From a virus, in UHGV virus genome UHGV-0323875: a stretch of DNA of 33,005 nucleotides; one strand, written 5' to 3'. Both the position numbers and the translations under genes were made by a program. The stretch's first letter is position 1. Each line of letters opens with the position of its first letter. Positions 907 to 33,005 of the stretch are shown piece by piece. The notes below the pieces were generated by a model, which searched no databases, had not been told where the DNA came from, and worked only from the letters and a program-made list of their open reading frames with translations.

Positions 907-1515
907 TATCATTCAATTTTGTAAAATTCAAACCTTGATTTTTGCCCATTCCTTACCACGATCATCATGGTATTTAGCTGTCTGGTTAGGCGATTTATGT
1001 CCCAGAAGTTTTTGGGTGTCGACGCCCTGAGCTTCGTAAAGTCGCTCAGATAAAGATCTTTGTTCATGGAATGTGGCGGGCGAACCTTCACCCCAGTCAA
1101 TGCCTGCTAAATCCCTCGCTTTACTGAAATTCATCGTCAATGTATTGGCTTTTACTTGCGCGCCACGTTCAGCCTGTGAAGTAGTACGAAAAAAATGTAC
1201 AAGGTATGGGCTGACTGCATAGTCACGGCAGCGGGCTACTACATCGCGTAAACTCCAGTTAATTGCATTGAGGCGAAGGGAAAGCGGGATGGCGATTTTG
1301 CTCCCGGTTTTTTCTTGGATGACGTGAAGATGATCATCCCAAATATCGCTAAATTTCATACGTGAGATATCACCTAACCGTTGGCCGGTAACCAGTGCTA
1401 ACAGCATGGCATTCCCCATATAACGATGGCGGGCATCTGCGATATCAAAGATTTTTTGCCATTCTTCAAGACTTAACCGTTGTCGGGTAATTTTTCTTCT
1501 GGGTTGTTTGGTTGC

Positions 1516-1552
1516 CAGTGCTGGATTATAGCCCGGAGGTACTTCCCCATAG
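1516..1552. repeat. Left arm of a 37 bp inverted repeat (1 mismatch) bounding the inverted int segment
   Basis: The reverse complement of 1516..1552 equals 1843..1879 except for one A/C difference; encodes GEVPPGYNPA on the minus strand. Confidence 0.85.
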
Positions 1553-1842
1553 GACAGGATCGCAACCAGCAAAGGAAAAGCAATCACAACGTCAACCTGG
1601 TTAGATCGCTATCAAGCAATCCAGGATGACAGACTGGAAAGTGGCGATATAAAGCTAAACACCTATAAACAGAAAGCCAAACCAGTATCCTTGCTCAGGG
1701 AACGAGCAGGAATGAAATTAATTTCATCAGTTGATGTAAGGGATATAGCACAATTACTTGACGAGTATATCACTGCCGGGCAACCGAGGATGGCGCAAGT
1801 AGTCCGCTCCGTTCTAATTGATGTATTCAAGGAGGCACAACA

Positions 1843-1879
1843 CTATGGGGAAGTCCCTCCGGGCTATAATCCAGCACTG
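1843..1879. repeat. Right arm of the 37 bp inverted repeat in int
   Basis: CTATGGGGAAGTCCCTCCGGGCTATAATCCAGCACTG; encodes GEVPPGYNPA on the plus strand. Confidence 0.85.
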
Positions 1880-2054
1880 CCGGGTTCTTTGCTCAGCCAG
1901 GCGTGAATTTGCCTCAGTGGCAATAGCAATGGCTTCAGCTTCGTTTGTGCCTAAAGAATGAAACTTCCCGGTCACTGGATGTTTATATCGCCAATAGACT
2001 TTATTTACTTTTCTACTATAAAGCGGATACAAGTTCGGGACTGAAACATTATTT

Positions 2055-2300
2055 TTACGTGGTCTGGCTGCCATTACTTAAAATCCTTTGTAGAATAATA
2101 GAATCATTTTTCTTGATGACAGGAGTAACTAATTCCCCAACTAACTCTGCGTCCTCACGCACTCGCCATAGTCGACCTTGTTTCATTGCCGGTGGACAAA
2201 ATAAATTCTGCTTAGCATAACGACGCAATGTGGACACGCTTGGAGGATTACTTCTGTATTTTTCCGCAGCCCATTCCTCAAGTGTCAGCATTTGAAGCAT
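2055..2300 (-). CDS. xis: Excisionase (lambda Xis-like)
   Basis: LTLEEWAAEKYRSNPPSVSTLRRYAKQNLFCPPAMKQGRLWRV parallels the lambda Xis N-terminus; overlaps the int start as in lambda; start chosen at the internal ATG with a GAGG RBS (ORF track extends to 2315). Confidence 0.7.
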   Translation of the reverse strand: MLQMLTLEEWAAEKYRSNPPSVSTLRRYAKQNLFCPPAMKQGRLWRVREDAELVGELVTPVIKKNDSIILQRILSNGSQTT

Positions 2301-2343
2301 TTTTGATAACCTCATTTCTTTTGCTACAAAACTATTTCACTAG

Positions 2344-2892
2344 TTAATTTCGCTGTCTGGATTGTTTATGCATCTTATGCAGCTCTTTAAAGCGTTCCAT
2401 AAACATCCCGTAGGCATGGCCCGGTGCCAGTGGAATCACGTTGAACATCTCTGTTGCCGGGATGCCTTCCAGTACAGGCCAGAAAGAGCCATCATCAAGC
2501 CCGAGATCGCGGCGTTCGGTTGCCAGCATGATGAGATCGGCATATTTCACGGGCGTACTCATAACCGGGGGTAACCCGTATTTCTCACGGATTACGGCGT
2601 CTATTTTTTCTTCCATCTGTTTATAGTCAGGAAGAAGGCGTTTCAGTGGAGCGGGGATGTCCTGGCAATACACTTCTGTTGCATCATGCATTAACGCTTC
2701 AAAAGCAAATTCCTGCGGTACCAGTTGGCTGCAAAGAACCGCATGTTGGGCGACGCTGTAGAAGTGTGAAAGATGTCCTGCAAAGCGACAGATATTTGAA
2801 AGGGAAAACGCGATATCGTTAATAACGATATCGTCTTTATTTATCCTGTCATAATAAAAATGCTTCCCAGAAAAAGTTTTAATAAATGACAT
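2344..2892 (-). CDS. HD-domain phosphohydrolase (YfbR/YfdR-like 5'-deoxynucleotidase family)
   Basis: H..H and HD motifs (FAGHLSHFYSVAQHAV...ALMHDATEVYCQDIPAPLK) align with the YfbR HD domain; start MSFIKTF with a GGAGAA RBS. Confidence 0.6.
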   Translation of the reverse strand: MSFIKTFSGKHFYYDRINKDDIVINDIAFSLSNICRFAGHLSHFYSVAQHAVLCSQLVPQEFAFEALMHDATEVYCQDIPAPLKRLLPDYKQMEEKIDAVIREKYGLPPVMSTPVKYADLIMLATERRDLGLDDGSFWPVLEGIPATEMFNVIPLAPGHAYGMFMERFKELHKMHKQSRQRN

Positions 2893-3020
2893 TTTGTTCT
2901 CCACGTTATTTGCGCTGCACCGCACTGAATTCTGGTAAAAGGAAGCCCTCACCATCCGGCGATTATTGAGTTAATTACGTTTCCATAAATGCCCCCGCAG
3001 GGGCATTTGCAGTAATCAAA

Positions 3021-3845
3021 TCAGGCGGTGAAAGTACCAATAAAGGTTTCTACTTTGCTGTCTTTGAATTTCTCAACAAGCAGATCGCGAAATTCGTTAG
3101 CCATTTCTTCCTGCACCGCCTCCAGCTGAATAATGCGCAGAACAAGTACAGGACGATCGCCAGTGATAATGCTGAGGCGTAATTTAAAAGAACGTTCTTT
3201 CAGACCTTCAAACGGAACGCATTTAAATTCAAATGCCACTGGCATAATGTCTTTGGTCTTCGCTTCGACAGACTCCATCAGGGAGCGTTTGCCGCTGAAG
3301 TCATTGTCTTCAAAATCAGCAGTCTGGTTCGCTTCAATTGTGATTTTACGGATCGCCGCAGCCGCTTTGGTTGCCTGAATGGCGTCACCATTAGCATCAA
3401 AGCCCACAAGGTTGTCGGCCCAGTCTTCAATCCATTCTGCCAGTGATTTCTGGGAGTTACGCTCGCCGTGAACAGACAACAGAGCAGAGAACGGTGCTGT
3501 CTTTTTCAGTTTGAGAGTGGCGGTGTTATCTGCGTGGCCTGGTTCATCAATAGTACCCAGGTTAAGCACACTGACGGCACGCATATTATCAGCATCGATA
3601 AAGCAGCGGGTGCCTTCATCTGCAAGATCTTTAGAATAACGGGTAAAGTCATCAATGCTGGCAGTGGAAAGCGCACCACGGAAACGGAAGCGATTTAAAT
3701 TAAATTTTTCCAGGTCATGAATGCGGAAATTCTCAGGCAATGCCACAGCATCGGCACCAATCTTACTGATAATTTCATTAACACCCTGAGCAGAAATAAG
3801 GGCATGGATTTGATTAATTGCGGTTGCGTCTAAGTTCTGAGACAT
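3021..3845 (-). CDS. Hypothetical prophage protein, 274 aa (YfdQ/DUF2303-like)
   Basis: Long ORF with ordinary composition; size and position match the YfdQ family of KplE1-type prophages (from memory, not searched). Confidence 0.5.
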
Positions 3846-3910
3846 AATAAGTCCTCACTATATAAAGATATTCAGTGATGAGATAAATAATCAGTTAATT
3901 AAAAACGATA

Positions 3911-4273
3911 TTAACGACCTGCTGCGCGGAGTTTTCCGTCAGGTTCACCGGCAAGAGTCAGTAACTGTCCCTGGTCTTCCTGCAGAATAGTCAGGCGACC
4001 ACCGCGATTGACATACATCGGCGTTTCGGTGGTGTCTTCTTCGGAAATTTTCCCGCGGTTAGTCGGGCGAACATATGAGAGTTTGTGTTTGATTTTCACA
4101 CGGTTCTCATCAAATGGTTCGATTTCCAGGTTGAGTGAGACCTTACCTTTGGTTTTCGTGTTCATCACACCGGAAGCGACTTCACTGAGAACTGCGCCGA
4201 TTTTGGTTTCAAATACGCCGCCGTCCAGCTCCCCGATAAATGCCTGCACATCAGTACTGCGTTCGCTAGCCAT
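3911..4273 (-). CDS. Hypothetical prophage protein, 120 aa (YfdP-like)
   Basis: Start MASERSTD preceded by a GAGGAG RBS; the upstream extension to 4591 in the ORF track is GC-rich non-coding-looking sequence. Confidence 0.5.
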   Translation of the reverse strand: MASERSTDVQAFIGELDGGVFETKIGAVLSEVASGVMNTKTKGKVSLNLEIEPFDENRVKIKHKLSYVRPTNRGKISEEDTTETPMYVNRGGRLTILQEDQGQLLTLAGEPDGKLRAAGR

Positions 4274-4710
4274 TTTGCTGCTCCTCATCATATCGACCCT
4301 GCAAGGCCGATTAGTTTCTCCACAAAACAGAGAAGAACACCTGCGGTGGCAGCCGCCCGGATGGATTGGGTTATGAGCCCGTCGTCCGGTGATGCTCTTC
4401 TCTGTTTTGTAAAAAGGACGGTACCAGCCGGAAGCAAGGGTACAAACTGGTACCGCCAGGACTACACACAGCATAAAGTTGTGGTGCCGGGTGCCTCCCG
4501 GTGCCTGGCGAAGGTTGCACACCAGACGGGTGGGTATCCACAGAAGGTCGACTGTCAGCCTCAACCTTAACCCGCGTGCGCTGAGCCGCATTCACCACAA
4601 CGCTAAGGATTCTCTCTGGTTGAAAATACTTAGCTGTTATGTGCCTGTCTTTTCACCACTTCAGGCTCGGTGGTATCCTTTTAAGCCCGTATACATAAAA
4701 GGAAAATCAA

Positions 4711-4860
4711 ATGACTTTTGATGAAAAAGAACTTGATAATGCAATTAATAAAATCATCGTAACGTCGCTCTTTTCCTGTCTCAGCGACACTCAGCAGAAA
4801 CAGTTCTACGAATCGGCTTTCAACATGATCGAGCGTTGTTGTTTCTGCGATGCCGACTAG
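4711..4860 (+). CDS. Small hypothetical protein, 49 aa
   Basis: ATG with an AAGGA RBS; MTFDEKELDNAINKII...; below the ORF-track size cut-off. Confidence 0.35.
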   Translation: MTFDEKELDNAINKIIVTSLFSCLSDTQQKQFYESAFNMIERCCFCDAD

Positions 4861-4873
4861 TTACCTGAAAAAA

Positions 4874-5149
4874 TCAGGAAACAGTTGGCTGATGCTCTTC
4901 GAGTGCGACTTTCTGACCAATTTTCTGAAATGTGCTCTCCGAATTTGGACAAATAGAAAAAGGCCATTTCCATTCAGGGTCTGATGGAAATACTTCAGCC
5001 TGTTCCAAAGCACGGCGTAAAGAGAACACAACTCCAGCCATAATCTGATGTTTCCCATTGGCCCAGCTATCGCCGCTCTGATCTACATGGGCGGCTATGT
5101 CGTATGACCAAACGACTTCACCACTATTGTTTAAAATCTGGACTTTCAT
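4874..5149 (-). CDS. Hypothetical protein, about 91 aa, first gene of the leftward operon downstream of cI
   Basis: ORF 4874..5170; an AGGTG RBS favours the internal start MKVQILNN. Confidence 0.4.
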   Translation of the reverse strand: MKVQILNNSGEVVWSYDIAAHVDQSGDSWANGKHQIMAGVVFSLRRALEQAEVFPSDPEWKWPFSICPNSESTFQKIGQKVALEEHQPTVS

Positions 5150-5275
5150 TTCATACACCTGCTTTAACATGAGTGCCTAGTGGCACAACATGACTCAACG
5201 AATCATCCTGGACTTCATATGCCCCAGGCGGCTACTTCGTGGGCGTCCTGCCTGTTCGTTATTTTTGATATAAAA

Positions 5276-5289
5276 TCTAACTTAACTTA
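5276..5289. promoter_or_regulatory. Putative repressor operator (OL-like), palindrome CTAACTTAACTTAG
   Basis: Same CTAA(G/C)-N4-CTTAG architecture as the two sites between cI and cro. Confidence 0.45.
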
Positions 5290-5355
5290 GTTATTATGGC
5301 AAGAGAAAACACCAAACTTTTCTTAGTTCGGTGCCTTAGTTAGAGAAGAGAGGTC

Positions 5356-5982: not shown

Positions 5983-6004
5983 AGGAGCACCATTTCTTGA
6001 ATTG

Positions 6005-6067
6005 CTAAGTAATCTTAGTTTTTATTGACCAAAGATAGATTTGTAATTAGCATCTAATAAAACTTAG
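6005..6067. promoter_or_regulatory. OR-like region: two 14 bp palindromic operators (6005..6018 CTAAGTAATCTTAG; 6054..6067 CTAATAAAACTTAG) with a TTGACC -35-like hexamer for rightward transcription
   Basis: Repeated inverted half-sites CTAAG/CTTAG in the cI-cro intergenic region; the site at 6054 sits just upstream of the cro RBS. Confidence 0.5.
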
Positions 6068-6079
6068 TTTGGAGGGCGT

Positions 6080-6280
6080 ATGACAACTGACGATATCGAA
6101 AGCTACTTCGGCAGTATTGAGAAAGTTGCTGCTTTTTTCGGCATAACAACTGAAGCCGTTTATCAGTGGCGAAACCGTCCGGGCCAGTTAATTCCAAAAG
6201 GACGTGCAGCAGAAGCTGCATATAGAACTTGCGGACGGTTGCCATTTAAACCTGAGCTTTATGAAAAATCTAATGGATAA
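6080..6280 (+). CDS. cro: Cro-like HTH regulator (YdaS/Cro family)
   Basis: 66 aa; GGAGGG RBS; ITTEAVYQWRNRPGQLIP is a Cro/YdaS-like HTH; divergent from cI. Confidence 0.75.
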   Translation: MTTDDIESYFGSIEKVAAFFGITTEAVYQWRNRPGQLIPKGRAAEAAYRTCGRLPFKPELYEKSNG

Positions 6281-7204: not shown

Positions 7205-7213
7205 AGGTCGGTC

Positions 7214-8155
7214 ATGAGCACTAAATTAACCGGCTATGTATGGGATGGTTGCGCTGCATCAGGCATGAAATTATCCAGCGTGGCAATTATGGCCCGCCTG
7301 GCTGATTTCAGTAATGACGAAGGTGTGTGCTGGCCATCAATTGAAACTATTGCCCGTCAGATTGGCGCGGGGATGAGTACCGTCAGGACGGCTATCGCAC
7401 GGCTGGAAGCAGAAGGCTGGTTAACGCGTAAGGCGCGTCGCCAGGGTAACCGCAATGCGTCGAATGTTTATCAGCTTAACGTTGCGAAGCTTCAGGCAGC
7501 GGCATTTTCTCAACTGTCAGATTCTGACCCGTCAAAATCTGACGCATCAAAATCTGACCCGTCAAAATTTGATGCGTCGAAATCTGGCAAAAAAGCGGGT
7601 TTTCACCCGTCAGAATCTGGCGGGGATCCGTCAGTAAAATCAAAACATGATCCGTCAGATAAAAAACCTTCTCGTCCGGACGCTTCGCAACCGGACACGC
7701 AGACGGATGAACAGGATTTTTTAACTCGCCATCCTGATGCGGTTGTATTCAGCCCTAAAAAGCGCCAGTGGGGAACGCAGGATGATTTGACCTGCGCACA
7801 GTGGCTCTGGAAAAAAATCATCGCCCTGTACGAGCAAGCCGCCGAATGTGACGGCGAGGTGGTTCGTCCCAAAGAACCGAACTGGACAGCCTGGGCAAAC
7901 GAAATTCGCCTGATGTGTGTGCAGGATGGTCGTACTCACAAACAAATCTGCGAGATGTACAGCCGCGTCAGCCGCGATCCGTTCTGGTGCCGTAACGTGC
8001 TCAGCCCGTCGAAGTTGCGGGAAAAATGGGATGAGCTTTCCCTGCGCTTATCGCCGTCCGTCAGCACGCACACAGAAAAACGCGAAGACCCGTACTTCAA
8101 AGCCAGTTACGACAATGTGGACTACAGCCAGATCCCGGCGGGATTCAGGGGGTGA
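7214..8155 (+). CDS. Replication initiation protein (lambda O-like, N-terminal winged HTH)
   Basis: Position after cro/cII; N-terminal HTH; internal low-complexity linker (DPSKSDASKSDPSKFDASKS) encoded by iteron-like repeats, as in lambda O. Confidence 0.7.
   Translation: MSTKLTGYVWDGCAASGMKLSSVAIMARLADFSNDEGVCWPSIETIARQIGAGMSTVRTAIARLEAEGWLTRKARRQGNRNASNVYQLNVAKLQAAAFSQLSDSDPSKSDASKSDPSKFDASKSGKKAGFHPSESGGDPSVKSKHDPSDKKPSRPDASQPDTQTDEQDFLTRHPDAVVFSPKKRQWGTQDDLTCAQWLWKKIIALYEQAAECDGEVVRPKEPNWTAWANEIRLMCVQDGRTHKQICEMYSRVSRDPFWCRNVLSPSKLREKWDELSLRLSPSVSTHTEKREDPYFKASYDNVDYSQIPAGFRG
7513..7660. repeat. Iteron-like ~15 bp tandem repeats (CCGTCAAAATCTGAC variants) inside the O-like gene, followed by an A-rich stretch: putative phage replication origin
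   Basis: At least 5 tandem or near-tandem copies, plus further CCGTCAG motifs. Confidence 0.6.
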
Positions 8156-8646
8156 TCATGAGTCTTTTGAATGACGTTCAGAAATTCATTGAAGCCCATC
8201 CGGGCTGTTCTTCCGGAGACATTGCGGATGCTTTTGCAGGTTACTCACGGCTGCGCGTTCTGCAGTCAGCAAGCAAGTTACGTCAGAGTGGGCGTGTGGC
8301 TCACCGTTGTGAAGGAGATACACGCAGACATTTCCCGCGCCTGACTGAGAGAGCGCAGGAGCCGGAACCACAACCAGTTCGTGAAACCAGACCTGTGCGC
8401 AATTTCTATGTCGGCACTAACGATCCCCGGGTGATTTTGTGCCTGACCCGCCAGGCTGAAGAACTGGAGTCCAGGGGCTTATACCGTCGTGCTGCAACGG
8501 TGTGGATGGCGGCATTCCGTGAAAGCCACTCCCAGCCAGAACGAAACAATTTTCTGGCGCGTCGTGAGCAGTGCTTACAGAAAAGCAGCAAGCGCGCTGC
8601 ATCGGGTGAAGAGTGGTATCTGTCAGGGAATTACGTGGGGGCGTAA
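8152..8646 (+). CDS. Hypothetical protein, 164 aa (possible PerC/YfdN-like regulator)
   Basis: Start and stop overlap the neighbouring genes; C-terminal LYRRAATVWMAAFRES segment resembles PerC/ANR-type helices (weak, from memory). Confidence 0.45.
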   Translation: MIMSLLNDVQKFIEAHPGCSSGDIADAFAGYSRLRVLQSASKLRQSGRVAHRCEGDTRRHFPRLTERAQEPEPQPVRETRPVRNFYVGTNDPRVILCLTRQAEELESRGLYRRAATVWMAAFRESHSQPERNNFLARREQCLQKSSKRAASGEEWYLSGNYVGA

Positions 8647-8972
8647 TGACGACGTTAACTCAATGCCAGCATCAGGTGCTGGATATGCTGATTTCTTACC
8701 AGAAAGAGCGTGGCTTTCCGCCAACCAATCAGGAGGTGGCAACCATGCTGGGATACCGTTCAGTGAATGCAGCGGTAGAGCATCTTCGTGCACTGGAGAA
8801 AAAAGGCGTCATCACGATAAAGCGTGGCGTGGCCCGGGGGATCACGCTTCATACCACAGTGAAGGACGACGACAGCGAGGCAGCCGGGATTATCCGCGCA
8901 CTGCTTGCCGGTGAGGAAAACGCCAGACTGCGTGCAGCCCACTGGTTACATGAGAGGGGCCTGAAAGTATGA
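8646..8972 (+). CDS. LexA-like DNA-binding-domain protein with no S24 peptidase domain
   Basis: LTQCQHQVLDMLISYQKERGFPPTNQEVATMLGYRSVNAAVEHLRALEKKGVITIKRGVARGITL parallels the E. coli LexA N-terminal winged HTH nearly residue for residue; the protein ends after about 108 aa. Confidence 0.7.
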   Translation: MTTLTQCQHQVLDMLISYQKERGFPPTNQEVATMLGYRSVNAAVEHLRALEKKGVITIKRGVARGITLHTTVKDDDSEAAGIIRALLAGEENARLRAAHWLHERGLKV

Positions 8973-9358: not shown

Positions 9359-9377
9359 TTAAGAGGAGAAACGAAGT

Positions 9378-10175: not shown

Positions 10176-10176
10176 G

Positions 10177-11172: not shown

Positions 11173-11185
11173 GTGGAGAATGAGC

Positions 11186-14416: not shown

Positions 14417-14980
14417 ATGCAAATGCTTGAATTTGTTGAGTCAGTAAGAAAATCTTTATTAGATGAAAATTATGAGGCTGCATTGTTTATTGCCTTATCT
14501 CTTCCTGATATATGTGGGAAACTTGAAACTCCTGAAGAGCGGAACGGGCCAAGAGCAAAAAGATGGTTTAAGGATAACCTTAAGGATAAATATTTTGCAG
14601 ATAATCTTTATGAGACGTTTTTGGCTAACTTTCCCGAGCAATTAGATAAAATGCCTCAATACTTAATCGATGATTTAAAAACAAAAAAACCATTGGTAAG
14701 CTTTGACCATGAAAGCTACTGGGCTTTAAGAAATGCATTTTTGCATGAGGCATCTGATAGTACTAAGTTACAAAAAATTCAACTTACGCACTCTTCTGCG
14801 CACATGAATATGTTTAACGGTGTGCTTCAGTTAAGTGTTATTAATTTATCTAATGATATCTGCGATGCGGTAGTTAAGTGGGTTGAGCGGATGAAGGATA
14901 ATAATGATGTATGCCAGAGGATAAATTCGAGGGCAAAAATCAAAAATGAAATGTTGGGTGGCGCTATTCGATTTGGGTAG
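14417..14980 (+). CDS. AT-rich moron protein of unknown function, 187 aa, with an R-x4-H motif (possible HEPN-like)
   Basis: Marked drop in GC content relative to both flanks; GGGGGAG RBS; motif WALRNAFLHE; followed by a strong terminator. Confidence 0.5.
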   Translation: MQMLEFVESVRKSLLDENYEAALFIALSLPDICGKLETPEERNGPRAKRWFKDNLKDKYFADNLYETFLANFPEQLDKMPQYLIDDLKTKKPLVSFDHESYWALRNAFLHEASDSTKLQKIQLTHSSAHMNMFNGVLQLSVINLSNDICDAVVKWVERMKDNNDVCQRINSRAKIKNEMLGGAIRFG

Positions 14981-16054: not shown

Positions 16055-17784
16055 GCCGGAAATCTTACCCCAACGTAAATGCTGCCAATCAGTATGCCCG
16101 GGATGTCGTGCGCGGAAAGATTGTGGCCTGCCAGTTTGTGATTCAGGCCTGCCAGCGCCATCTTGATGACCTGATGGCGGAAAAAAGTAAGTCGTTTCGT
16201 TACCGCTTCGACAAGGATCTGGCTGAACGGGCCGCCAAATTTATTCAGCTGTTGCCGCACACCAAGGGTGAGTGGGCATTTAAACGGATGCCCATCACGC
16301 TGGAGCCGTGGCAGCTCTTTGTGATCTGCTGCGCGTTTGGCTGGGTCAATAAAGGCTCCCGGCTGCGCCGCTTCCGGGAGGTGTATACCGAAATCCCCCG
16401 TAAGAACGGCAAATCGGCAATCTCTGCCGGTGTTGCCCTGTATTGTTTTGCCTGTGATAACGAGTTTGGCGCGGAAGTGTATTCCGGTGCCACGACAGAG
16501 AAACAGGCGTGGGAAGTCTTTCGCCCGGCGCGACTGATGTGTAAACGCACACCCATGCTGACGGAAGCGTTCGGGATTGAGGTTAACGCCTCAAACATGA
16601 ACCGTCCGGAGGATGGGGCGCGGTTTGAACCGCTGATTGGTAACCCCGGTGATGGTTCATCACCCCACTGTGCGGTGGTGGATGAATATCACGAGCACGC
16701 CACAGATGCGCTTTACACCACGATGCTTACCGGGATGGGGGCGCGACGTCAGCCACTGATGTGGGCCATTACCACCGCCGGGTACAACATTGAGGGGCCG
16801 TGCTACGACAAACGGCGGGAAGTCATCGAGATGCTCAACGGCTCGGTGCCCAACGATGAACTGTTCGGGATCATCTATACCGTTGACGAAGGCGACGACT
16901 GGACCGACCCGCAGGTACTTGAAAAAGCTAACCCGAATATCGGTGTGTCGGTTTATCGCGAGTTTTTGTTAAGCCAGCAGCAACGTGCGAAAAATAACGC
17001 CCGTCTGGCAAACGTCTTTAAAACAAAACACCTCAATATCTGGGTGTCGGCGCGTTCGGCGTATTTCAACCTGGTGAGCTGGCAGAGCTGCGAGGATAAA
17101 TCACTGACTCTTGAGCAGTTCGAGGGGCAGCCGTGCATTCTGGCCTTTGACCTGGCGCGTAAGCTGGATATGAACAGCATGGCGCGACTTTATACCCGCG
17201 AGATTGACGGTAAAACGCATTACTACAGTGTGGCCCCGCGTTTCTGGGTACCGTATGACACGGTGTACAGCGTCGAGAAAAATGAAGATCGCCGGACAGC
17301 CGAACGCTTTCAGAAATGGGTGGAAATGGGCGTCCTGACCGTTACCGATGGTGCAGAGGTGGATTATCGCTACATCCTCGAAGAGGCCAAAGCGGCGAAC
17401 AAAATCAGCCCGGTCAGCGAGTCACCCATCGACCCCTTCGGGGCGACCGGGCTGTCACATGACCTTGCTGATGAAGACCTGAACCCCATCACCATCATTC
17501 AGAACTACACCAACATGTCCGATCCGATGAAAGAGCTGGAAGCGGCAATTGAATCGGGGCGCTTTCATCATGATGGCAATCCCATCATGACCTGGTGTAT
17601 CGGCAACGTGGTCGGCAAAACTATTCCGGGTAACGATGATGTGGTGAAGCCCGTCAAAGAGCAGGCGGAAAACAAAATTGACGGTGCAGTTGCGCTGATT
17701 ATGGCGGTTGGCAGAGCCATGCTGTATGAGAAAGAAGACACGCTGTCTGACCACATTGAGTCCTACGGGATCCGCTCGCTTTAA
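16051..17784 (+). CDS. Terminase large subunit (HK97-like)
   Basis: 577 aa; P-loop-like PRKNGKS; immediately downstream of TerS. Confidence 0.8.
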
Positions 17785-17795
17785 CTGAGGTAATT

Positions 17796-17978
17796 ATGAT
17801 CATGCTGATTCTCGCGCCTCTGGTGGGCGTGCTGGGGGCGCTTTTGCTGGCGTATGGTGCCTGGCTGATTTATCCCCCGGCGGGGTTTGTTGTTGCCGGG
17901 GCGTTGTGTCTGTTCTGGTCGTGGCTGGTGGCGCGATATCTCGACCGTACACAGCTGTCTGTCGGCGGAGGTAAATAG
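17796..17978 (+). CDS. Small hydrophobic protein, 60 aa
   Basis: Two predicted transmembrane helices; between terL and the portal gene. Confidence 0.35.
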
Positions 17979-19861: not shown

Positions 19862-21067
19862 ATGGCGGTTGATATTAAAGATGTCGAACAGGTCGCGCAG
19901 GAGCTGCAGCAGAAGTTTGACGACTTCAAAGCAAAGAACGACAAGCGCGTGGATGCGATTGAGCAGGAAAAAGGCAAACTTGCCGGGCAGGTGGAAACCC
20001 TGAACGGGAAACTCAGCGAGCTGGAAAACCTCAAAAGCGATCTTGAAAAAGAGCTGCTTGAGCTGAAACGTCCGGCAGGTGGTGCGCAAAATAAACTGGC
20101 CACCGAGCATAAAGAAGCGTTTGTGGGCTTCCTGCGTAAAGGCCGTGAAGATGGCCTGCGCGATCTGGAGCGCAAGGCATTACAGGTGGGCACCGATGAA
20201 GACGGCGGCTATGCCGTGCCGGAAGCACTGGATCGCAACATTCTCACCCTGCTGAAAGATGAAGTGGTGATGCGCCAGGAAGCCACGGTGATCACCGTTG
20301 GTGGTTCCGACTACAAAAAACTGGTGAATCTGGGCGGCACGGCTTCCGGATGGGTTGGCGAGACTGACGCGCGCTCCCAGACTGCCACCTCAAAACTGGG
20401 CCTGATTGAACCTTTCATGGGGGAAATCTACGGTAACCCGCAGGCCACCCAGAAAATGCTGGATGATGCCTTTTTCAACGTGGAAGCATGGATCAACAGC
20501 GAGCTGGCAACCGAATTTGCCGAACAGGAAGAAATTGCCTTTACCACCGGCGATGGTACCAAGAAGCCGAAAGGGTTCCTGGCGTATGAATCCACTGATG
20601 AAACCGATAAGGTCCGGGCGTTCGGCAAACTTCAGCATATTGTATCCGGCGAAGCGACGGGGGTGACCGCAGACGCCATTATCAAACTGATTTACACGCT
20701 GCGAAAGGCACACCGCACTGGCGCGAAGTTCATGATGAACAACAACAGCCTGTTTGCCATCCGTCTGCTTAAAGACAGCGAGGGTAACTATCTGTGGCGT
20801 CCGGGGCTGGAACTGGGACAGCCGTCCTCTCTGGCGGGTTACGGTATCGCTGAAAACGAACAGATGCCGGATATCGCCGCTGATGCGAAAGCCATTGCAT
20901 TTGGTAACTTCAAACGGGGTTACACCATCGTTGACCGTATCGGCACCCGCATTCTGCGTGACCCGTACACCAATAAACCGTTTGTCGGTTTTTATACCAC
21001 CAAGCGCACCGGCGGGATGCTGGTCGATTCGCAGGCCATCAAACTGCTGAAGATTGCAGCGGCGTAA
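19862..21067 (+). CDS. Major capsid protein (HK97 fold) with an N-terminal coiled-coil delta domain
   Basis: 401 aa; N-terminal coiled coil followed by a capsid-like body; followed by a stem-loop. Confidence 0.8.
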   Translation: MAVDIKDVEQVAQELQQKFDDFKAKNDKRVDAIEQEKGKLAGQVETLNGKLSELENLKSDLEKELLELKRPAGGAQNKLATEHKEAFVGFLRKGREDGLRDLERKALQVGTDEDGGYAVPEALDRNILTLLKDEVVMRQEATVITVGGSDYKKLVNLGGTASGWVGETDARSQTATSKLGLIEPFMGEIYGNPQATQKMLDDAFFNVEAWINSELATEFAEQEEIAFTTGDGTKKPKGFLAYESTDETDKVRAFGKLQHIVSGEATGVTADAIIKLIYTLRKAHRTGAKFMMNNNSLFAIRLLKDSEGNYLWRPGLELGQPSSLAGYGIAENEQMPDIAADAKAIAFGNFKRGYTIVDRIGTRILRDPYTNKPFVGFYTTKRTGGMLVDSQAIKLLKIAAA

Positions 21068-23088: not shown

Positions 23089-23096
23089 GGATCCTC

Positions 23097-27349: not shown

Positions 27350-27410
27350 TGAAAAATTAATCTGTTAATGAGTCCCACTCCGGTGGGATTTTTTATGTAC
27401 GGAGTTTATA

Positions 27411-28759
27411 TGACGTGGAAAGACAGACTTCAGGACGCGTCATTTCGCGGTGTGCCGTTTAAGGTTGAAGAAGAAAGTACGGGAACCGGTCGTCGTGTGG
27501 AAACGCACGAATACCCGAACCGCGACAAACCCTATACCGAAGACCTGGGGAAAATCACTTTCCGCCCGTCCATCACGGCTTATGTGGTGGGAGATGACTG
27601 CTTTGACCAGCGCGATCGCCTGATTGACGCGCTGAATAAACCCGGTCCCGGCACGCTTGTCCATCCGACTTACGGTGAGCTGAAAGTCTGTGTTGACGGA
27701 GAGGTTCGGGTCAGCACATCGAAGAGTGAAGGGCGTATTGTCCGCTTTGACCTGAAGTTTGTCGAAGCGGGAGAACTCTCTTACCCCACTTCAGGTGCGG
27801 CGACGGCGCAGACGCTGATGTCATCCTGTTCTGCACTGGATGACTGCATCAGTGACAGCTTCAGCGGTTTCAGTATCGATGGCGTGGCGGATTTCGTGCA
27901 GAACGACGTTATTGGTAATGCCAGCATAATGCTGGGGTATGTTTCTGATGCGATGAAAGTGGTGGATTCTGCCGTATCGGATGCCGCCAGGCTGTTGCAG
28001 GGGGATATCTCGGTACTTCTGCCGCCGCCATCGTCAGGCAAAAATTTCGTTGAGCAGGTGCAGAAAATGTGGCGTACCGGGAAACGCCTTTATGGTAACG
28101 CCAGCGATCTGGTCACCATGATCAAAACGCTTTCCGGTGTCAGCCTCGGCAGTGATCTGCAACCGCGCGGCGTCTGGAAAACGGACAGTAAAATCCGCAT
28201 TCAGATCTGCTTTCACCCGGCGCAGCGCCAGAAACAGCGCATCACTGGTTGTACGGGACAACTCCTTATCAATTGCCGTATTCAGTGTGTCGCGAATGTC
28301 AGTCAGTTCTTCCCACGTCGGCAGATCAACCGTGTTTTTCATCGCCGGTGCATTGTTCAGTGCCGGATGCGTGACGGAAGGCCAGCCGGTGCTCTGTGCA
28401 GCTGTTGTTGCCTGCCCCACTGCGGCATTCTGCATCACCGCGGAAGTTGTTGGCGCAGGCAATCGGGTGACGGCATACGCCGCTTCGCTGATTGCGGTCG
28501 TACGAAGGGTGCTGGCAACCACGTTACGCTGCTGCGTCGCCGTAGCGGTGGTTTTACTGTCCGTTTTCCAGACGCCAACACGCGCCTTGAACAGTCTGCA
28601 CGGATCATTCAGCGCACACCGGATGAGGTTTTACCCGCGCTGGTGCTGGCGGCGACCTGGTTTGATAACGCGACGCGTGACGCGGACATTATCCGGCGTA
28701 ATGCCATTACGCATCCCGGCTTTGTGCCGGTGATCCCTCTGAAGGTGCCAGTGCAATGA
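27411..28759 (+). CDS. DNA circulation protein (Mu gpN/gp43-like); carries an internal 358 bp segment in inverted orientation but remains one open frame
   Basis: N-terminus MTWKDRLQDASFRGVPFKVEEESTGTGRRVETHEYPNR; residues encoded by 28194..28551 are Cys/Arg-rich junk on the plus strand while the minus strand reads TTATATQQRNVVASTLRTT...KADLNAD. Confidence 0.65.
28169..28193. repeat. Left arm of a perfect 25 bp inverted repeat (GGCGTCTGGAAAACGGACAGTAAAA) inside the DNA circulation gene
   Basis: Exact reverse complement of 28552..28576. Confidence 0.9.
28552..28576. repeat. Right arm of the perfect 25 bp inverted repeat (TTTTACTGTCCGTTTTCCAGACGCC)
   Basis: Exact reverse complement of 28169..28193. 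Confidence 0.9.
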
Positions 28760-29835
28760 ACGATAACGTCACGCTACGGGTAAATGGCCGGGAGTGGAAT
28801 GGCTGGACATCGGTGCGCATCGGTGCCGGTATTGAACGGCTGGCGCGGGATTTCAGTGTGGAGATCACCCGCCAGTGGCCGGGAGATGAGGGTATCACCA
28901 CGCTTCAGCCGCGCATTAAAAACGGTTCAAAAGTGGAAGTGCTGATTGGTGATGAGCGGGTGATCACCGGCTGGGTGGAGGCGACTCCCGTTCGTTACGA
29001 TGCCCGTTCGGTCAGCACCGGTATTGCCGGACGCAGTCTGACCGCTGACCTGATTGACTGTGCAGCCGAACCGACACAGTTTAACGGACGATCGCTGGTA
29101 CAGATTGCGCAGGCGCTTGCTGCGCCTTTCGGCATTGAGGTGGTGAACAGCGGTGCGCCGTCGGGTGTTATTCCTGATGTCCAGCCTGATCACGGTGAAA
29201 CGGTGATTGAGGTAATCAACAAAATACTCGGTCAGCAGCAGGCACTGGCTTACGACGATCCGCACGGCAGGCTGGTGATTGGCGGTATTGGCTCAACGCG
29301 GGCACATACCGCGCTGGTACTTGGGGAAAACATCCTTTCCTGCGATACGGAGAAGAGTATCCGGGAGCGGTTTTCTGTTTACCAGGTGGCGGGGCAGCGT
29401 GCCGGAAACGACGATGATTTCGGTGAGGCCACCACCACCGCGCTGCGGGCCCGCACAGAGGACGCATTTATTGCCCGTTACCGTCCGATGTATATCAGGC
29501 AGACAGGGCAGGCTACGGGGGCAGGCTGTATTGCGCGTGCTGACTTTGAAGCCCGGCAACGGGCGGCGCGGACGGATGAAACCACCTATGTGGTGCAGGG
29601 CTGGCGACAGGGTAACGGTACGCTGTGGCAACCCAACCAGCGGGTGATTGTCTTTGATCCGGTCTGTGGTTTTGACAATACCGAACTGCTTGTTTCGGAA
29701 GTCACGTTTACTCAGGACCAGAACGGCACCCTGACGGAAATCCGTGTCGGCCCGCCTGATGCTTATCTGCCTGAACCTGAAGACCCCGGCGCGCGGAAAA
29801 AGAAAAAAGCCAGAGTACAGGAGGACCCGTTCTGA
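28756..29835 (+). CDS. Baseplate hub protein (Mu gpP/gp44-like)
   Basis: 359 aa; position after the DNA circulation gene. Confidence 0.65.
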   Translation: MNDNVTLRVNGREWNGWTSVRIGAGIERLARDFSVEITRQWPGDEGITTLQPRIKNGSKVEVLIGDERVITGWVEATPVRYDARSVSTGIAGRSLTADLIDCAAEPTQFNGRSLVQIAQALAAPFGIEVVNSGAPSGVIPDVQPDHGETVIEVINKILGQQQALAYDDPHGRLVIGGIGSTRAHTALVLGENILSCDTEKSIRERFSVYQVAGQRAGNDDDFGEATTTALRARTEDAFIARYRPMYIRQTGQATGAGCIARADFEARQRAARTDETTYVVQGWRQGNGTLWQPNQRVIVFDPVCGFDNTELLVSEVTFTQDQNGTLTEIRVGPPDAYLPEPEDPGARKKKKARVQEDPF

Positions 29836-30383
29836 TGAGGACGATTGAAGCCATGCAGCGACAACTTCTCGGCCTGATTGGGCGGGCAGTGGTGAAAAGC
29901 ATCAGTGCCGCCACGAAATGTCAGACCGTGGATGTGTCCCTGATTGCCGGTGAACCCAAAGCCGGGGTTGAACATCTTGAACCCTACGGTTTTACCGCAA
30001 GGGCAAACAGCGGTGCGGAAGCGGTGGTGTTGTTTCCGGATGGCGACCGTTCTCATGCGGTGGTTGTTACGGTGTCGGACCGGCGCTACCGCCTGAAAGG
30101 GCTGCATACGGGGGAGGTGGCTGTCTATGACGATCAGGGGCAGTCCGTGACGCTGACCCGGGAGGGGATCGTGGTGGACGGTGCAGGTAAAACAATCACG
30201 TTTCGCAATGCGCCTAAGGCTCGTTTTGAAATGGACCTGGAAGTGACCGGACAGGTGAAAGACCTGTGCGACTCCACCGGCACCACCATGTCAGCGATGC
30301 GGCTTGCCTATAACGGGCATCGTCACAGAGAGAACGGTCAGGGCAGTAACACCGACAAACCTGATAAAGCGATGGAGGCATGA
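29835..30383 (+). CDS. Baseplate assembly / spike protein (gpV, Mu gp45-like)
   Basis: 182 aa; conserved order. Confidence 0.6.
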   Translation: MRTIEAMQRQLLGLIGRAVVKSISAATKCQTVDVSLIAGEPKAGVEHLEPYGFTARANSGAEAVVLFPDGDRSHAVVVTVSDRRYRLKGLHTGEVAVYDDQGQSVTLTREGIVVDGAGKTITFRNAPKARFEMDLEVTGQVKDLCDSTGTTMSAMRLAYNGHRHRENGQGSNTDKPDKAMEA

Positions 30384-30808
30384 TGGAACTGTGGCTGACG
30401 GTGAACGGTAAACGCACCTGCGCCAGCGCACCGCTGGATCCGCTGACCCGTGCCGTGGTGATTTCCCTGTTCACCTGGCGGCGGGCTGAACCTGATGACA
30501 ATGCCGACGTCCCGATGGGATGGTGGGGGGATACCTGGCCTGCGGTACAGAATGACCGTTACGGCTCCCGACTGTGGCTGCTTCAGCGCAGCAAACTGAC
30601 CAATCAGCTGGTGCAGACGGTAAGGGGATATATCCGCGAATGCCTGCAATGGATGATTGATGACGGCGTGGTGTCCCGTATTGATCTGGATATCCGCCGC
30701 ACCGGGATTAATGAGCTGGGTAACAGTATCACCCTCTGGCGTCGTGACGGACCGGTAATGATTTCTTTTGATGATCTGTGGAGTGCGATAACGCATGGCG
30801 GACAGTGA
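30380..30808 (+). CDS. Baseplate wedge protein (GPW/gp25-like, Mu gp46)
   Basis: 142 aa; conserved order. Confidence 0.6.
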   Translation: MMELWLTVNGKRTCASAPLDPLTRAVVISLFTWRRAEPDDNADVPMGWWGDTWPAVQNDRYGSRLWLLQRSKLTNQLVQTVRGYIRECLQWMIDDGVVSRIDLDIRRTGINELGNSITLWRRDGPVMISFDDLWSAITHGGQ

Positions 30809-31853
30809 ATTTCAACGCCCGACGCTGGCAGAAAATATCAGTATGCTCCGTAACGATTTATTCGCCAGGCTGGACGTCAGCGACACGCTCCGGCGCATGG
30901 ATGAAGACGTGCGGGCAAAGGTGTATGCGGCGGCGCTGCATACGGTTTACGGTTACATCGATTATCTGGCAATGAACATGCTGCCTGACCTGTGCGATGA
31001 GTCCTGGCTGGCGCGACATGCTGCGATGAAACGGTGTCCGCGCAAGGGGGCCACGTCTGCCAGCGGGTATATGCGCTGGGAAGGTGTCAGCGATGGCCTG
31101 AAGGTGACCGCCGGGAGTGTTATTCAGCGCGATGACCTGGTTCAGTACACGACAACTGACGATGCAACCAGCTCCGGTGGTGTCCTGCGCGTGCCGATCG
31201 CCTGCTCAAGTGCAGGTGCGGTCGGTAACGCTGACGACGGTACGGCATTAATCCTGGTCACGCCGGTGAATGGTCTGCCGTCTTCCGGTGTGGCTGACAC
31301 CATTACAGGCGGATTTGATACTGAAGAGCTGGAAACGTGGCGCGCCCGCGTCATTGAGCGGTATTACTGGACGCCGCAGGGCGGGGCTGACGGGGACTAT
31401 GTCGTTTGGGCTAAAGAAGTGCCCGGCATTACCCGCGCATGGACATACCGTCACTGGATGGGAACGGGAACTGTCGGTGTGATGATTGCCAGCAGTGACC
31501 TGATTAATCCCATTCCGGAAGAATCAACGGAAACGGCAGCAAGACAACATATCGGGCCACTGGCCCCGGTGGCAGGCTCTGATTTGTATGTATTCAGGCC
31601 GGTGGCACATACGGTGGATTTTCATATCCGCGTGACGCCGGACACACCAGAAATACGGGCTGCCATTACCGCGGAGTTGCGTTCGTTCCTGCTGCGTGAT
31701 GGTTATCCGCAGGGAGAACTGAAGGTATCGCGTATCAGTGAGGCGATTTCCGGTGCGAACGGGGAATACAGCCATCAGTTGCTTGCACCGGTGGACAATA
31801 TCTCCATTGCGAAAAACGAACTGGCGGTACTGGGGACGATTTCATGGACGTGA
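30795..31853 (+). CDS. Baseplate J-like protein (Mu gp47-like)
   Basis: 352 aa; conserved order. Confidence 0.65.
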
Positions 31854-32428
31854 CAAACGATGATTACATCCGCCTGTTATCGGCACTGTTGCCGCCCGGT
31901 CCGGCGTGGTCAGCCAGCGATCCGGCGATTGCCGGTGCGGCACCGTCATTAACCCGTGTTCATCAGCGTGCGGATGCCCTGATGCGGGAGCTGGATCCGC
32001 GCACCACCACTGAACTGATAAACCGCTGGGAGCGTCTGTGCGGTCTGCCGGATGAATGTATTCCCGCAGGGACACAGACCCTTCGTCAGCGTCAGCAACG
32101 GCTGGATGCGAAGGTTAACCTGGCGGGCAGCATCAACGAGAATTTTTATCTTGCACAGCTTGCTGCCCTGGGCAGACCAGATGCCAACATCACGCGATAC
32201 GACAAAAGCACGTTCACCTGCTCATCGGTCTGTACTGACGCGGTGAATGCGCCGGAATGGCGGTATTACTGGCAGGTCAACATGCCAGCCGCCACAAACA
32301 CCACCTGGATGACATGTGGCGATCCCTGTGATTCCGCGCTGCGTATCTGGGGCGACACCGTTGTCGAATGTGTGCTTAACAAACTCTGCCCGTCGCATAC
32401 CTACGTAATTTTTAAATATCCGGAGTAA
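31844..32428 (+). CDS. Tail protein (Mu gp48 / YmfQ-like, DUF2313)
   Basis: 194 aa; immediately precedes the tail-fibre gene. Confidence 0.6.
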
Positions 32429-32431
32429 TCC

Positions 32432-33005
32432 ATGCATCGTATAGACACGAAAACCGCGCAGAAGGATAAGTTCGGCGCGGGTAAGAACGGTTTTACCCGT
32501 GGTAACCCCCAGACCGGCACACCTGCCACCGATCTGGATGATGACTACTTTGACATGTTGCAGGAGGAACTTTGCAGTGTTGTGGAGGCATCCGGTGCCA
32601 GCCTAGAGAAGGGGCGGCATGACCAGCTGCTTACAGCGCTTCGTGCGCTGCTGTTAAGCCGCAAGAATCCGTTTGGCGATATCAAATCGGATGGCACGGT
32701 GAAAACGGCTCTCGAAAACCTTGGTTTGGGAGAAGCGGCAAAACGAAATGTGGGAACAGGGGAAAATCAGATACCTGATATGTCATCATATGCATCAGGT
32801 TCAGGCTGGCGAAAAATGCCAGATGGTTCAATTGAACAGTGGGGACGAATTAGTTTTCCTGGTGATTACTTCGTCTATATCAACACCTTTTTCTTCAGGC
32901 CATTCACCTTTTTCAACATAAAGAGACTGAAGTTCGTAAGGATATGCCAGGTTGTTTACGTACAGATATTTCATCATTACCAGCCCTTAGCGAAAAACGC
33001 ACCAC
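32432..33005 (+). CDS. Side tail fibre protein, N-terminal part (StfP/StfE-like); the reading frame becomes antisense junk after about residue 143
   Basis: [48 protein letters not shown] is a conserved tail-fibre N-terminus; a [14 protein letters not shown] motif follows; downstream [17 protein letters not shown] is F-rich and antisense to a minus-strand gene start. Confidence 0.6.
32828..32977 (-). CDS. Tail-fibre-assembly-like gene start ([37 protein letters not shown]), apparently truncated after about 38 codons
   Basis: ATG with an AAGGG RBS and an in-frame upstream stop; the N-terminal pattern (AYPYEL...G.WPEE) resembles Tfa proteins; the remainder is antisense of the tail-fibre gene. 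Confidence 0.4.

What the first reader, a model, noticed from the sequence alone, without database searches (positions are those of the whole stretch)
928..33005. Prophage carrying several independent inversion lesions: likely defective, possibly through a recurrent mechanism
Integrase, the DNA circulation gene and the tail fibre each show a few-hundred-bp sense/antisense switch (290 bp, 358 bp, third unresolved), and two have short inverted-repeat boundaries. Either the element is decaying through repeated repeat-mediated inversions, or the segments are actively invertible, or the assembly contains systematic fold-back artefacts.
Basis: inference. Interest (0 to 1): 0.55.

Follow-up and report, generated by a model that had tools for sequence, protein, structure and literature searches.

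The report
Three flipped blocks in a prophage
An ordinary E. coli SfV/e14-type prophage carries three ~0.3-kb blocks reverse-complemented in place inside genes; they occur in no other public sequence, not even a 100%-identical sister contig, and look more like errors made when the sequence was built than like biology.

Summary
W1553-1879 (intE), W28193-28576 (DNA-circulation gene) and W32866-33005 (tail fibre / fibre-assembly genes, cut by the window end) are reverse-complemented relative to every relative. The two best inverted repeats in the window flank the first two blocks: 37 nt with 290 nt between, and 25 nt with 358 nt between.

A public sister contig (GCA_019147615.1) is 100% identical over the rest of the window. 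It has intact collinear genes and only the left repeat arm. The right arms are therefore scars: inverted duplications of 37 and 25 nt of left flank, paired with 15- and 2-nt losses on the right.

This is the known Pin crossover site at W32716-32735.

The flips are private. They are absent from 5,426 complete E. coli genomes, the phage, viral, metagenome and species-representative genome collections, and a 15-billion protein set. Junction overlaps are at chance level (0, 3, 1, 1, 1 nt). No hairpins or Pin-like sites lie at the breakpoints. The only point difference in 33 kb sits 12 nt from a junction.

Most likely (~0.6) these are sequence-construction or editing artefacts. The main rival (~0.25) is a real near-reciprocal non-homologous inversion of the kind seen in starving E. 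coli. Interest is low.

The parts
928..2074 (-). intE tyrosine integrase, 375 aa in the sister contig. Here it is split into a C-terminal catalytic fragment (928-1587), an antisense middle part, and an N-terminal arm-binding fragment (1814-2074). The net change is +19 nt.
   Evidence: Pfam gives Phage_integrase, Arm-DNA-bind_1 and Phage_int_M on the three pieces. The intact 375-aa gene is in L023, L012 and L001.
1516..1552 (.). Left (native) arm of the 37-nt inverted repeat. It carries the window's only private point change, W1540 G>T, a synonymous Val codon 12 nt from junction A.
   Evidence: No genome among the 165 that hold this stretch has the T. The duplicated arm keeps the ancestral base.
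1553..1879 (.). Lesion 1 flipped block, 327 nt. It consists of 290 nt of inverted gene interior plus a 37-nt inverted duplicate of the left flank (1843-1879). 15 nt of ancestral sequence are missing at the right junction. Junction overlaps are 0 and 3 nt.
27410..28759 (+). DNA-circulation (Mu gp43-like tail) gene, 442 aa in the sister contig. Here it is a 449-aa ORF that stays open (+21 nt, in frame), but roughly residues 262-389 are antisense-coded.
   Evidence: Translation is. Only DNA_circ_N at residues 7-93 is recognised. The sister gene is L004 11897-13225. Two of the three frames of the flipped block are stop-free.
28193..28576 (.). Lesion 2 flipped block, 384 nt. It consists of 358 nt of inverted interior plus a 25-nt inverted duplicate of the left flank (28552-28576; the native arm is 28169-28193). 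2 nt are missing at the right junction. Junction overlaps are 1 and 1 nt.
32432..33005 (+). Tail-fibre gene, variable-end type. It runs through the Pin crossover site and is then broken by lesion 3.
   Evidence: Translation is. The L006 gene calls are 16898-17521 (207 aa, Gp53-like_C) and 17521-17964 (Caudo_TAP).
32712..32737 (.). Pin (serine invertase) crossover site of the invertible P segment. The window has the orientation found in L006, opposite to the sister contig L004.
   Evidence: The 20-nt shared overlap is 32716-32735. The site sequences of both copies are. pinE lies next to the segment in relatives. Both orientations occur naturally (L004/L005 versus L006).
32866..33005 (.). Lesion 3 flipped block, partial. 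It equals the reverse complement of L006 17493-17633. The left junction is L006 17331|17633, with a 1-nt overlap. The predicted block is at least 302 nt and spans the tail-fibre 3' end and the fibre-assembly 5' end. The far junction lies beyond the window.

Best explanation
The window is an otherwise intact SfV/e14-family prophage inserted at icd. It has one genuine, known programmed switch, the Pin-invertible tail-fibre segment, with its crossover at 32716-32735.

On top of this, three short blocks (327 nt, 384 nt and at least 302 nt) have been cut, flipped and pasted back at their own loci. In both fully resolved lesions (1 and 2) the block overlaps the left flank by 25-37 nt. That overlap is why a short inverted repeat now brackets it. 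The block also falls 2-15 nt short on the right. The joins are sequence-independent.

I judge these flips most likely to have been introduced when the sequence was constructed, not in a cell. That means short pieces placed in the wrong orientation during assembly, finishing or scaffolding, or some later editing of the record.

What is shown: the anatomy, the private status of the lesions, and the scar nature of the repeats. What is inferred: the non-biological origin.
For: (1) One public contig, GCA_019147615.1 JAEABD010000002.1, matches W1-1552 with 1 mismatch. It matches W1880-28193 and W28576-32735 with 0 mismatches, and the flipped blocks themselves at 100%. It has collinear, intact intE and DNA-circulation genes.

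(2) No other sequence carries the flips:
- 0 of 494 and 0 of 1,099 matching E. coli records span them.
- 0 phage records span lesion 2.
- The junction 26-28-mers are absent from the collections scanned: junction 1 from viral, genome and metagenome contigs, junction 2 from metagenome and genome contigs, junction 3 from viral contigs. The ancestral junction-2 27-mer is in 23 viral contigs.
- The four lesion-specific ORF products are absent from the gene-position index.
- They are also absent from the 15-billion protein set.
- Intact neighbouring proteins are in 419-2,414 blocks.

(3) Three such events sit in 33 kb against zero ordinary substitutions. At that density across a genome there would be about 450 gene-breaking lesions, which is not viable if real but is unproblematic for an artefact (inference).

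(4) Junction overlaps of 0, 3, 1, 1 and 1 nt fit random joins, for which the expected mean is 0.67 and P(at least 1) is 0.44. They do not fit polymerase re-priming.

(5) The only point difference is private. It lies 12 nt from a junction, in the flank copy but not in the duplicated copy. An error at the end of a sequence piece would look like this.

(6) The overlap-on-one-side, gap-on-the-other geometry is what a mis-oriented piece gives.
Against: The rest of the sequence is flawless, so this is not a generally poor assembly.

De Bruijn-graph assemblers cannot make such joins without reads that span them. A specific faulty step (finishing, scaffolding or editing) must therefore be assumed, and I cannot name it.

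The same anatomy, a near-reciprocal non-homologous inversion with tens-of-bp gains and losses at the ends, has been documented in living E. coli (PMC3161906). All three lesions have the polarity expected for a leading strand moving from icd into the prophage.

I have no reads and no view of the rest of the source genome.
Confidence: 0.6

Rival explanations
1. The lesions are physically real events in the cell. They would be near-reciprocal, non-homologous inversions made inside a replication fork or during break-induced replication. The nascent leading strand runs to p and jumps 290-360 nt ahead onto the lagging-strand template. It copies back 25-37 nt past p, then returns 2-15 nt beyond its first landing site. 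The three could be one multi-switch episode that crippled the prophage.
For: The anatomy matches the two inversions (1.5 and 2.4 kb) with small duplications and deletions at both ends, and the within-fork double-switch model, described for starving E. coli (PMC3161906). All three lesions share one polarity, which agrees with fork direction at icd in K-12 (own knowledge). A private substitution lies 12 nt before a switch point, while the second copy is ancestral. That fits error-prone synthesis. The flanks are otherwise perfect, so any junction reads would have had to be the majority.
Against: Junction overlaps are at chance level. Published E. coli template-switch junctions show 2-30 nt. None of the six ancestral breakpoints folds better than shuffles (z from -1.1 to +1.2), so the hairpin-stall version has no support. 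Three rare events in 33 kb with no other divergence have no precedent. No sibling carries any one of them singly.
Confidence: 0.25
2. The lesions are chimeras made in vitro by a strand-displacing polymerase (multiple displacement amplification of low-input DNA) and carried into the consensus.
For: In the Lasken and Stockwell single-cell MDA data set, MDA produced about one chimera per 22 kb of read sequence. 85% of them were inverted joins, mostly between points less than 10 kb apart (PMC1855051). That density and orientation resemble three flips in 33 kb.
Against: 93.5% of proximal inverted MDA junctions have at least 2 nt of complementarity. Here only 1 of 5 does. MDA chimeras are single joins with an intervening deletion, not paired joins that return within 2-15 nt of the first landing site. 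A chromosomal E. coli prophage with an otherwise error-free consensus does not suggest a single-cell or low-input sample.
Confidence: 0.07
3. The lesions are programmed invertible segments. They would be intragenic invertons, or Pin acting at secondary sites, caught in the flipped state.
For: Each resolved block is bracketed by an inverted repeat. Lesion 2 keeps the reading frame open. A serine invertase, Pin, belongs to this prophage family. Intragenic invertons are a described class (PMC10028968).
Against: The un-flipped state with both arms exists nowhere. All relatives have one arm and an intact gene. The change is not conservative: +37/-15 nt and +25/-2 nt. Flipping back between the arms would leave a +19-nt frameshift in intE. 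The breakpoints match the Pin site no better than background, 11-15 of 26 positions against a mean of 12.3.
Confidence: 0.03
4. The lesions are homologous (RecA-type) inversions between pre-existing short inverted repeats.
For: Inverted repeats of 37 and 25 nt sit exactly at the block boundaries.
Against: The right-hand arm is absent from the sister contig and from every relative. 15 or 2 nt of unrelated sequence sit there instead. Recombination between repeats cannot create a repeat.
Confidence: 0.01

Closest known systems
Near-reciprocal non-homologous inversions in starving E. coli (Lin et al. 2011, PLoS Genet 7:e1002223; PMC3161906)
   Same: An in-place inversion without pre-existing repeats. 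The two exchanges are not quite at the same position, so small duplications and deletions flank the inverted segment. It is explained by two inverted template switches within one fork.
   Different: The published cases are 1.5 and 2.4 kb, single events, with 2-30 nt of junction microhomology and predicted hairpins at the junctions. Here the blocks are 0.3-0.4 kb, there are three in 33 kb, the overlaps are at chance level, and no hairpins are predicted. Physical reality is unproven.
Pin / P-segment of e14 and the Gin, Cin and Hin family of serine-invertase tail-fibre switches
   Same: The switch at W32716-32735 is exactly this. It has inverted crossover sites in the tail-fibre gene, alternative fibre ends and assembly genes, pinE next to it in relatives, and both orientations in nature.
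   Different: The three lesions are not. They have no sites, are not conservative, and do not resemble the crossover site.
Intragenic invertons (Chanin, West et al.; PMC10028968)
   Same: A few-hundred-bp segment inside a coding region, bracketed by inverted repeats. One of them keeps the frame open.
   Different: Invertons have both repeat arms in both states and flip reversibly in a population. Here the second arm is new, and the un-flipped two-arm state exists nowhere.
Multiple-displacement-amplification chimeras (Lasken and Stockwell 2007; PMC1855051)
   Same: Inverted joins between nearby points at roughly one per 20 kb.
   Different: MDA joins are single, carry an intervening deletion, and nearly always have at least 2 nt of complementarity. 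These joins are paired, near-reciprocal and essentially blunt.
SfV / SfII / SfIV / e14-type temperate phages with Mu-like contractile tails
   Same: The gene order runs int-xis-...-repressor/cro-replication-lysis-terminase-portal-capsid-sheath-tube-tape measure-DNA circulation-baseplate-fibre-pin. The insertion site is next to icd. The lesion-2 block of the DNA-circulation gene is 96-98% identical to SfV, SfII and SfIV.
   Different: Nothing of note apart from the lesions.

Membership tests
Serine-invertase (Pin/Gin/Hin/Cin) invertible segment | A pair of pre-existing inverted ~26-bp crossover sites at the segment ends | tested here: not met
   For lesions 1-3, the ancestral sequence has no second arm, and the breakpoints match the Pin site at background level. 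The feature is met only by the separate P-segment switch at 32716-32735.
Serine-invertase (Pin/Gin/Hin/Cin) invertible segment | Conservative exchange with no gain or loss of bases | tested here: not met
   Lesion 1 gains 37 nt, loses 15 nt and shares 3 nt. Lesion 2 gains 25 nt and loses 2 nt. The net changes are +19 and +21 nt.
Serine-invertase (Pin/Gin/Hin/Cin) invertible segment | Both orientations found among relatives or in a population | tested here: not met
   The flipped state occurs only in this window. For the P segment both orientations are found (L004/L005 versus L006).
Intragenic inverton | Inverted repeats flank the segment in the reference (un-flipped) state as well | tested here: not met
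   The sister contig and all relatives hold the left arm only.
Intragenic inverton | Reads of both orientations in one sample | not testable with these tools
   No reads are available.
Repeat-mediated (homologous) inversion | Inverted repeats present before the event | tested here: not met
   The right arms are new inverted duplicates of the left flank.
Near-reciprocal template-switch inversion (Lin et al. 2011 type; FoSTeS/MMBIR-like) | In-place inversion with non-homologous junctions and small duplications or deletions at the ends | tested here: met
   compared with PMC3161906 Figure 4 and the text.
Near-reciprocal template-switch inversion (Lin et al. 2011 type; FoSTeS/MMBIR-like) | Junction microhomology that could prime synthesis (typically at least 2 nt) | tested here: not met
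   The overlaps are 0, 3, 1, 1 and 1 nt, so only one of five reaches 2 nt. This is consistent with chance. Published junctions have 2-30 nt.
Near-reciprocal template-switch inversion (Lin et al. 2011 type; FoSTeS/MMBIR-like) | Stall-prone secondary structure at the switch points | tested here: not met
   60-nt ssDNA folds at the six ancestral breakpoints give z from -1.10 to +1.21 against shuffles.
Near-reciprocal template-switch inversion (Lin et al. 2011 type; FoSTeS/MMBIR-like) | The rearranged molecule exists in the cell | not testable with these tools
   This needs reads or PCR from the source isolate.
MDA chimera | At least 2 nt of complementarity at proximal inverted junctions (93.5% of cases) | tested here: not met
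   1 of 5 junctions qualifies.
MDA chimera | A single inverted join with an intervening deletion | tested here: not met
   The joins are paired and return within 2-15 nt of the first landing site.
SfV/e14-type prophage at icd | A lambda-type integrase and excisionase beside icd, Mu-like tail and baseplate genes, and a fibre switch with pin | tested here: met
   Annotated relatives and the sister contig show this. Pfam supports it for window ORFs. The lesion-2 region of the DNA-circulation gene is 96-98% identical to SfV, SfII and SfIV. pin itself lies beyond the window end.

The most novel reading that the evidence does not exclude
The three flips are physically real and arose together in one replicative accident: repeated strand switching while a broken fork was rebuilt across the prophage. 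That single step would have locked the prophage in (integrase broken) and disarmed it (tail genes broken). As a by-product, each event created a new pair of 25-37-nt inverted repeats around a gene-internal segment. This would be a way in which intragenic invertible cassettes could be born.
Probability: 0.12. Interest if true: 0.65.

Novelty: not a real feature. Interest (0 to 1): 0.2.

Why it matters
As it stands this is mainly a caution. A flipped block that overlaps its flank creates its own bracketing inverted repeat. Repeat-plus-inversion scanners, and human readers, will then call it an inverton or a repeat-mediated inversion. Comparison with a sister sequence shows the repeat is a scar.

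If the lesions proved physically real, they would be a rare natural example of clustered near-reciprocal non-homologous inversions in E. coli. They would also show a one-step route to prophage domestication. That would need reads from the source isolate.

Tried and rejected
1. Finding the source record.
- Junction 26-28-mers were searched in viral, species-representative genome and metagenome contigs, with no match.
- The four lesion-specific ORF products were looked up in the gene-position index and the 15-billion protein set. None is present.
- The nearest sequence found is a lesion-free sister contig.

2. Pin acting at secondary sites. The breakpoints resemble the crossover site no more than random window positions do, and the exchanges are not conservative.

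3. Hairpin-stall template switching. There is no excess folding at any breakpoint.

4. MDA chimeras. The microhomology and the paired-junction geometry do not fit.

5. Selection for an open frame. Lesion 2 stays open, but two of the three frames of that block lack stops anyway, and lesion 1 frameshifts. This is no evidence of recoding.

6. The missing Dam methyltransferase gene at about W8646 as a fourth lesion. The sister contig and several relatives lack it too, so it is a natural module difference.

7. The W1540 change as a natural polymorphism. It is absent from all 165 genomes that hold this stretch.

8. An EcoRV site (GATATC) sits at one breakpoint of lesion 2. No restriction-site pattern appears at the other breakpoints, so I treat it as coincidence.


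Full report
**What the window is**

The window is an E. coli chromosomal prophage next to icd. It belongs to the SfV/e14 family.
- Annotated relatives show, in order: intE, xisE, yfdR/Q/P, a LexA-like repressor and cro, replication genes, lysis genes, terminase, portal, capsid, sheath, tube, tape measure, a DNA-circulation protein, Mu-like baseplate proteins, and a tail fibre with alternative ends. pinE and mcrA lie just past the window end.
- Pfam on window ORFs agrees.
- The lesion-2 region of the DNA-circulation gene is 96-98% identical to phages SfV, SfII and SfIV.

**Checking the observation**

BLAST of the window against relatives shows three places where a short block matches the opposite strand while both flanks stay collinear.
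- Lesion 1 is W1553-1879, inside intE.
- Lesion 2 is W28193-28576, inside the DNA-circulation gene.
- Lesion 3 starts at W32866 and runs to the window end.

An independent repeat scan ranks the arms around lesions 1 and 2 as the two best inverted repeats in the window.
- The first pair is 37 nt long, 97% complementary, with 290 nt between the arms.
- The second pair is 25 nt long, 100% complementary, with 358 nt between the arms.

Protein domains confirm the strand switch in the integrase. The arm-binding domain and the catalytic domain read on the minus strand, and the central domain reads on the plus strand.

**A sister sequence**

Exact-protein look-ups found one public draft contig, GCA_019147615.1 JAEABD010000002.1, held here as loci L023, L019 and L004.
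- It matches W1-1552 with one mismatch.
- It matches W4417-24980 at 20,564 of 20,564 bases.
- It matches W15514-28193 and W28576-32735 with no mismatch.
- It matches both flipped blocks at 100%.
- That contig has an intact 375-aa integrase and an intact 442-aa DNA-circulation gene.

The window therefore differs from a clone-mate by only four things: three flips, one point change, and the orientation of the Pin segment.

**The repeats are scars, not causes**

Exact-match extension against the sister sequence gives the anatomy of each lesion. The window follows the ancestor up to position p. It then continues with the reverse complement of the ancestor from q back to p-k+1. It then resumes at q+d+1.

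| | Block length | k (duplicated) | d (lost) | Junction overlaps | Net change |
|---|---|---|---|---|---|
| Lesion 1 | 327 nt | 37 nt | 15 nt | 0 and 3 nt | +19 nt |
| Lesion 2 | 384 nt | 25 nt | 2 nt | 1 and 1 nt | +21 nt |

The right-hand repeat arm is a new inverted copy of the left flank. The ancestor has unrelated bases there. Recombination between pre-existing repeats is excluded. So is any conservative site-specific inversion.

**The third lesion and the Pin switch are separate things**

- At W32716-32735 the window crosses from the constant part of the tail-fibre gene into the alternative variable end. This happens at a 20-nt stretch shared by two inverted sites. By my recollection these are the pix sites of e14.
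- Relatives occur in both orientations: L004 and L005 one way, L006 the other. This is the known Pin/P-segment switch.
- L006 stays collinear with the window for a further 130 nt, to W32865. Then the window jumps to the reverse complement of L006 17633 downwards.
- That jump is lesion 3. It has a 1-nt overlap and a predicted block of at least 302 nt. The block covers the end of the fibre gene and the start of the fibre-assembly gene. Its far end is outside the window.

**The lesions are private**

- No complete E. coli genome spans either resolved lesion in one piece: 0 of 494 and 0 of 1,099 matching records.
- No phage record spans lesion 2 in one piece.
- The junction 26-28-mers are absent from the collections scanned. 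Junction 1 was searched in viral, species-representative genome and metagenome contigs. Junction 2 was searched in metagenome and genome contigs. Junction 3 was searched in viral contigs only.
- As a control, the ancestral junction-2 27-mer occurs in 23 viral contigs.
- The four ORF products that exist only because of the lesions are absent from the gene-position index and from the 15-billion protein set.
- The neighbouring intact proteins are common.
- The one point change, W1540 G>T, is also private. It is a synonymous valine codon.
- It lies 12 nt from junction A of lesion 1, in the flank copy of the 37-mer. The duplicated copy keeps the ancestral base.
- A lone random change would fall within 12 nt of one of the five junctions about 0.4% of the time. 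It is therefore tied to the event.

**How the lesions arose**

The anatomy is that of a block cut, flipped and re-joined at its own locus. Equivalently, a copying process switched strands twice.

A published in-vivo precedent exists. In starving E. coli, Lin et al. found 1.5- and 2.4-kb inversions whose exchanges were "almost, but not quite, reciprocal". They carried small duplications and deletions at the ends. The authors explained them by a leading strand that switches onto the lagging-strand template and back (PMC3161906).

Three tests count against that origin here.
- The junction overlaps (0, 3, 1, 1, 1 nt) are what sequence-independent joins give by chance. The expected mean is 0.67, and at least one shared base is expected at 44% of joins. 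Published E. coli junctions carry 2-30 nt.
- None of the six ancestral breakpoints folds better than shuffled sequence.
- Three such rare events in 33 kb, with no ordinary divergence from a clone-mate and no sibling carrying any one of them, is far outside known rates.

The same microhomology argument, and the paired near-reciprocal geometry, count against amplification chimeras. In MDA, 93.5% of proximal inverted joins have at least 2 nt of complementarity, and the joins are single (PMC1855051).

The breakpoints do not resemble the Pin site.

**Verdict on origin**

What remains most likely is a non-biological origin. Short pieces were placed in the wrong orientation, with an overlap on one side and a small gap on the other, and an error near one piece end. 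This could have happened in assembly finishing, scaffolding or later editing.

I cannot name the exact step. Graph assemblers cannot make such joins without reads that span them, and the rest of the sequence is flawless. I therefore hold this at about 0.6. I keep a real in-vivo event at about 0.25.

**Consequences if the sequence is physically true**

- intE is split and frameshifted, so the prophage could not excise.
- The DNA-circulation protein keeps its N-terminal domain. About 128 residues are replaced by antisense-coded sequence. The frame stays open, but two of three frames of that block are stop-free anyway.
- The fibre and its assembly gene are broken.
- Flipping back between the new repeat arms would not restore intE, because 19 extra bases would remain.

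**Comparison and novelty**

- The prophage and the Pin switch are known.
- The lesions work like the near-reciprocal inversions of Lin et al. They fail two of that class's usual features, microhomology and secondary structure. Their physical existence is untested.
- They imitate intragenic invertons (PMC10028968) but fail the defining test, because the un-flipped state with both arms does not exist.
- I rate the finding as most likely not a real biological feature, with low interest. Its main value is as a warning that in-place flips create their own flanking inverted repeats.

Noticed in passing
window 1-927 (full genes in L023 14340-15236 and 15211-15675): This is a low-GC (38%) pair of overlapping ORFs of 298 and 154 aa, between icd/attL and intE. 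K-12 e14 carries ymfD-ymfE-lit in that slot (own knowledge). Neither ORF has a Pfam or PADLOC match, so this is unannotated prophage cargo, possibly a defence or moron module.
   Followed up: partly
window 14417-14980: A 187-aa ORF sits in a 39% GC island between the lysis genes and the HNH/terminase genes. It has no Pfam or PADLOC match, yet the exact protein is widespread (864 blocks of the collection).
   Followed up: partly
window ~8640-8650: The phage Dam-type N6-adenine methyltransferase gene sits between the perC/yfdN-like and LexA-like genes in many relatives (L003, L008-L011, L022). It is absent here. It is also absent from the sister contig and from L018, L020 and L021. This is a natural module polymorphism, not a lesion.
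   Followed up: yes
window 7518-7619: A cluster of short inverted and palindromic repeats (20-nt arms 62 nt apart; 18-nt arms 2 nt apart) lies inside the replication-initiator-like gene at 7214-8155. It is probably the phage origin with its iterons.
   Followed up: no
window 995-1196 vs L001 2016-2217: The 3' part of intE is 76% identical to an integrase pseudogene remnant that lies closer to icd in relatives. This is a trace of an earlier or tandem integration at the same site.
   Followed up: no
window 32716-32735: This is the Pin crossover site. The window has the P segment in the orientation opposite to its 100%-identical sister contig. One metagenome scaffold (L007) ends exactly at this site, which is a typical assembly break at an invertible segment.
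   Followed up: yes
L018 14689-20564 (relative, not the window): In one relative (GCA_024629355.1), called genes with Mu repressor-, transposase- and MuB-type domains start about 1.1 kb after the last shared gene (the 60-aa ORF downstream of terminase). The window's match to that locus ends within the start of the portal gene. This suggests a Mu-like insertion into a prophage of this family.
   Followed up: no
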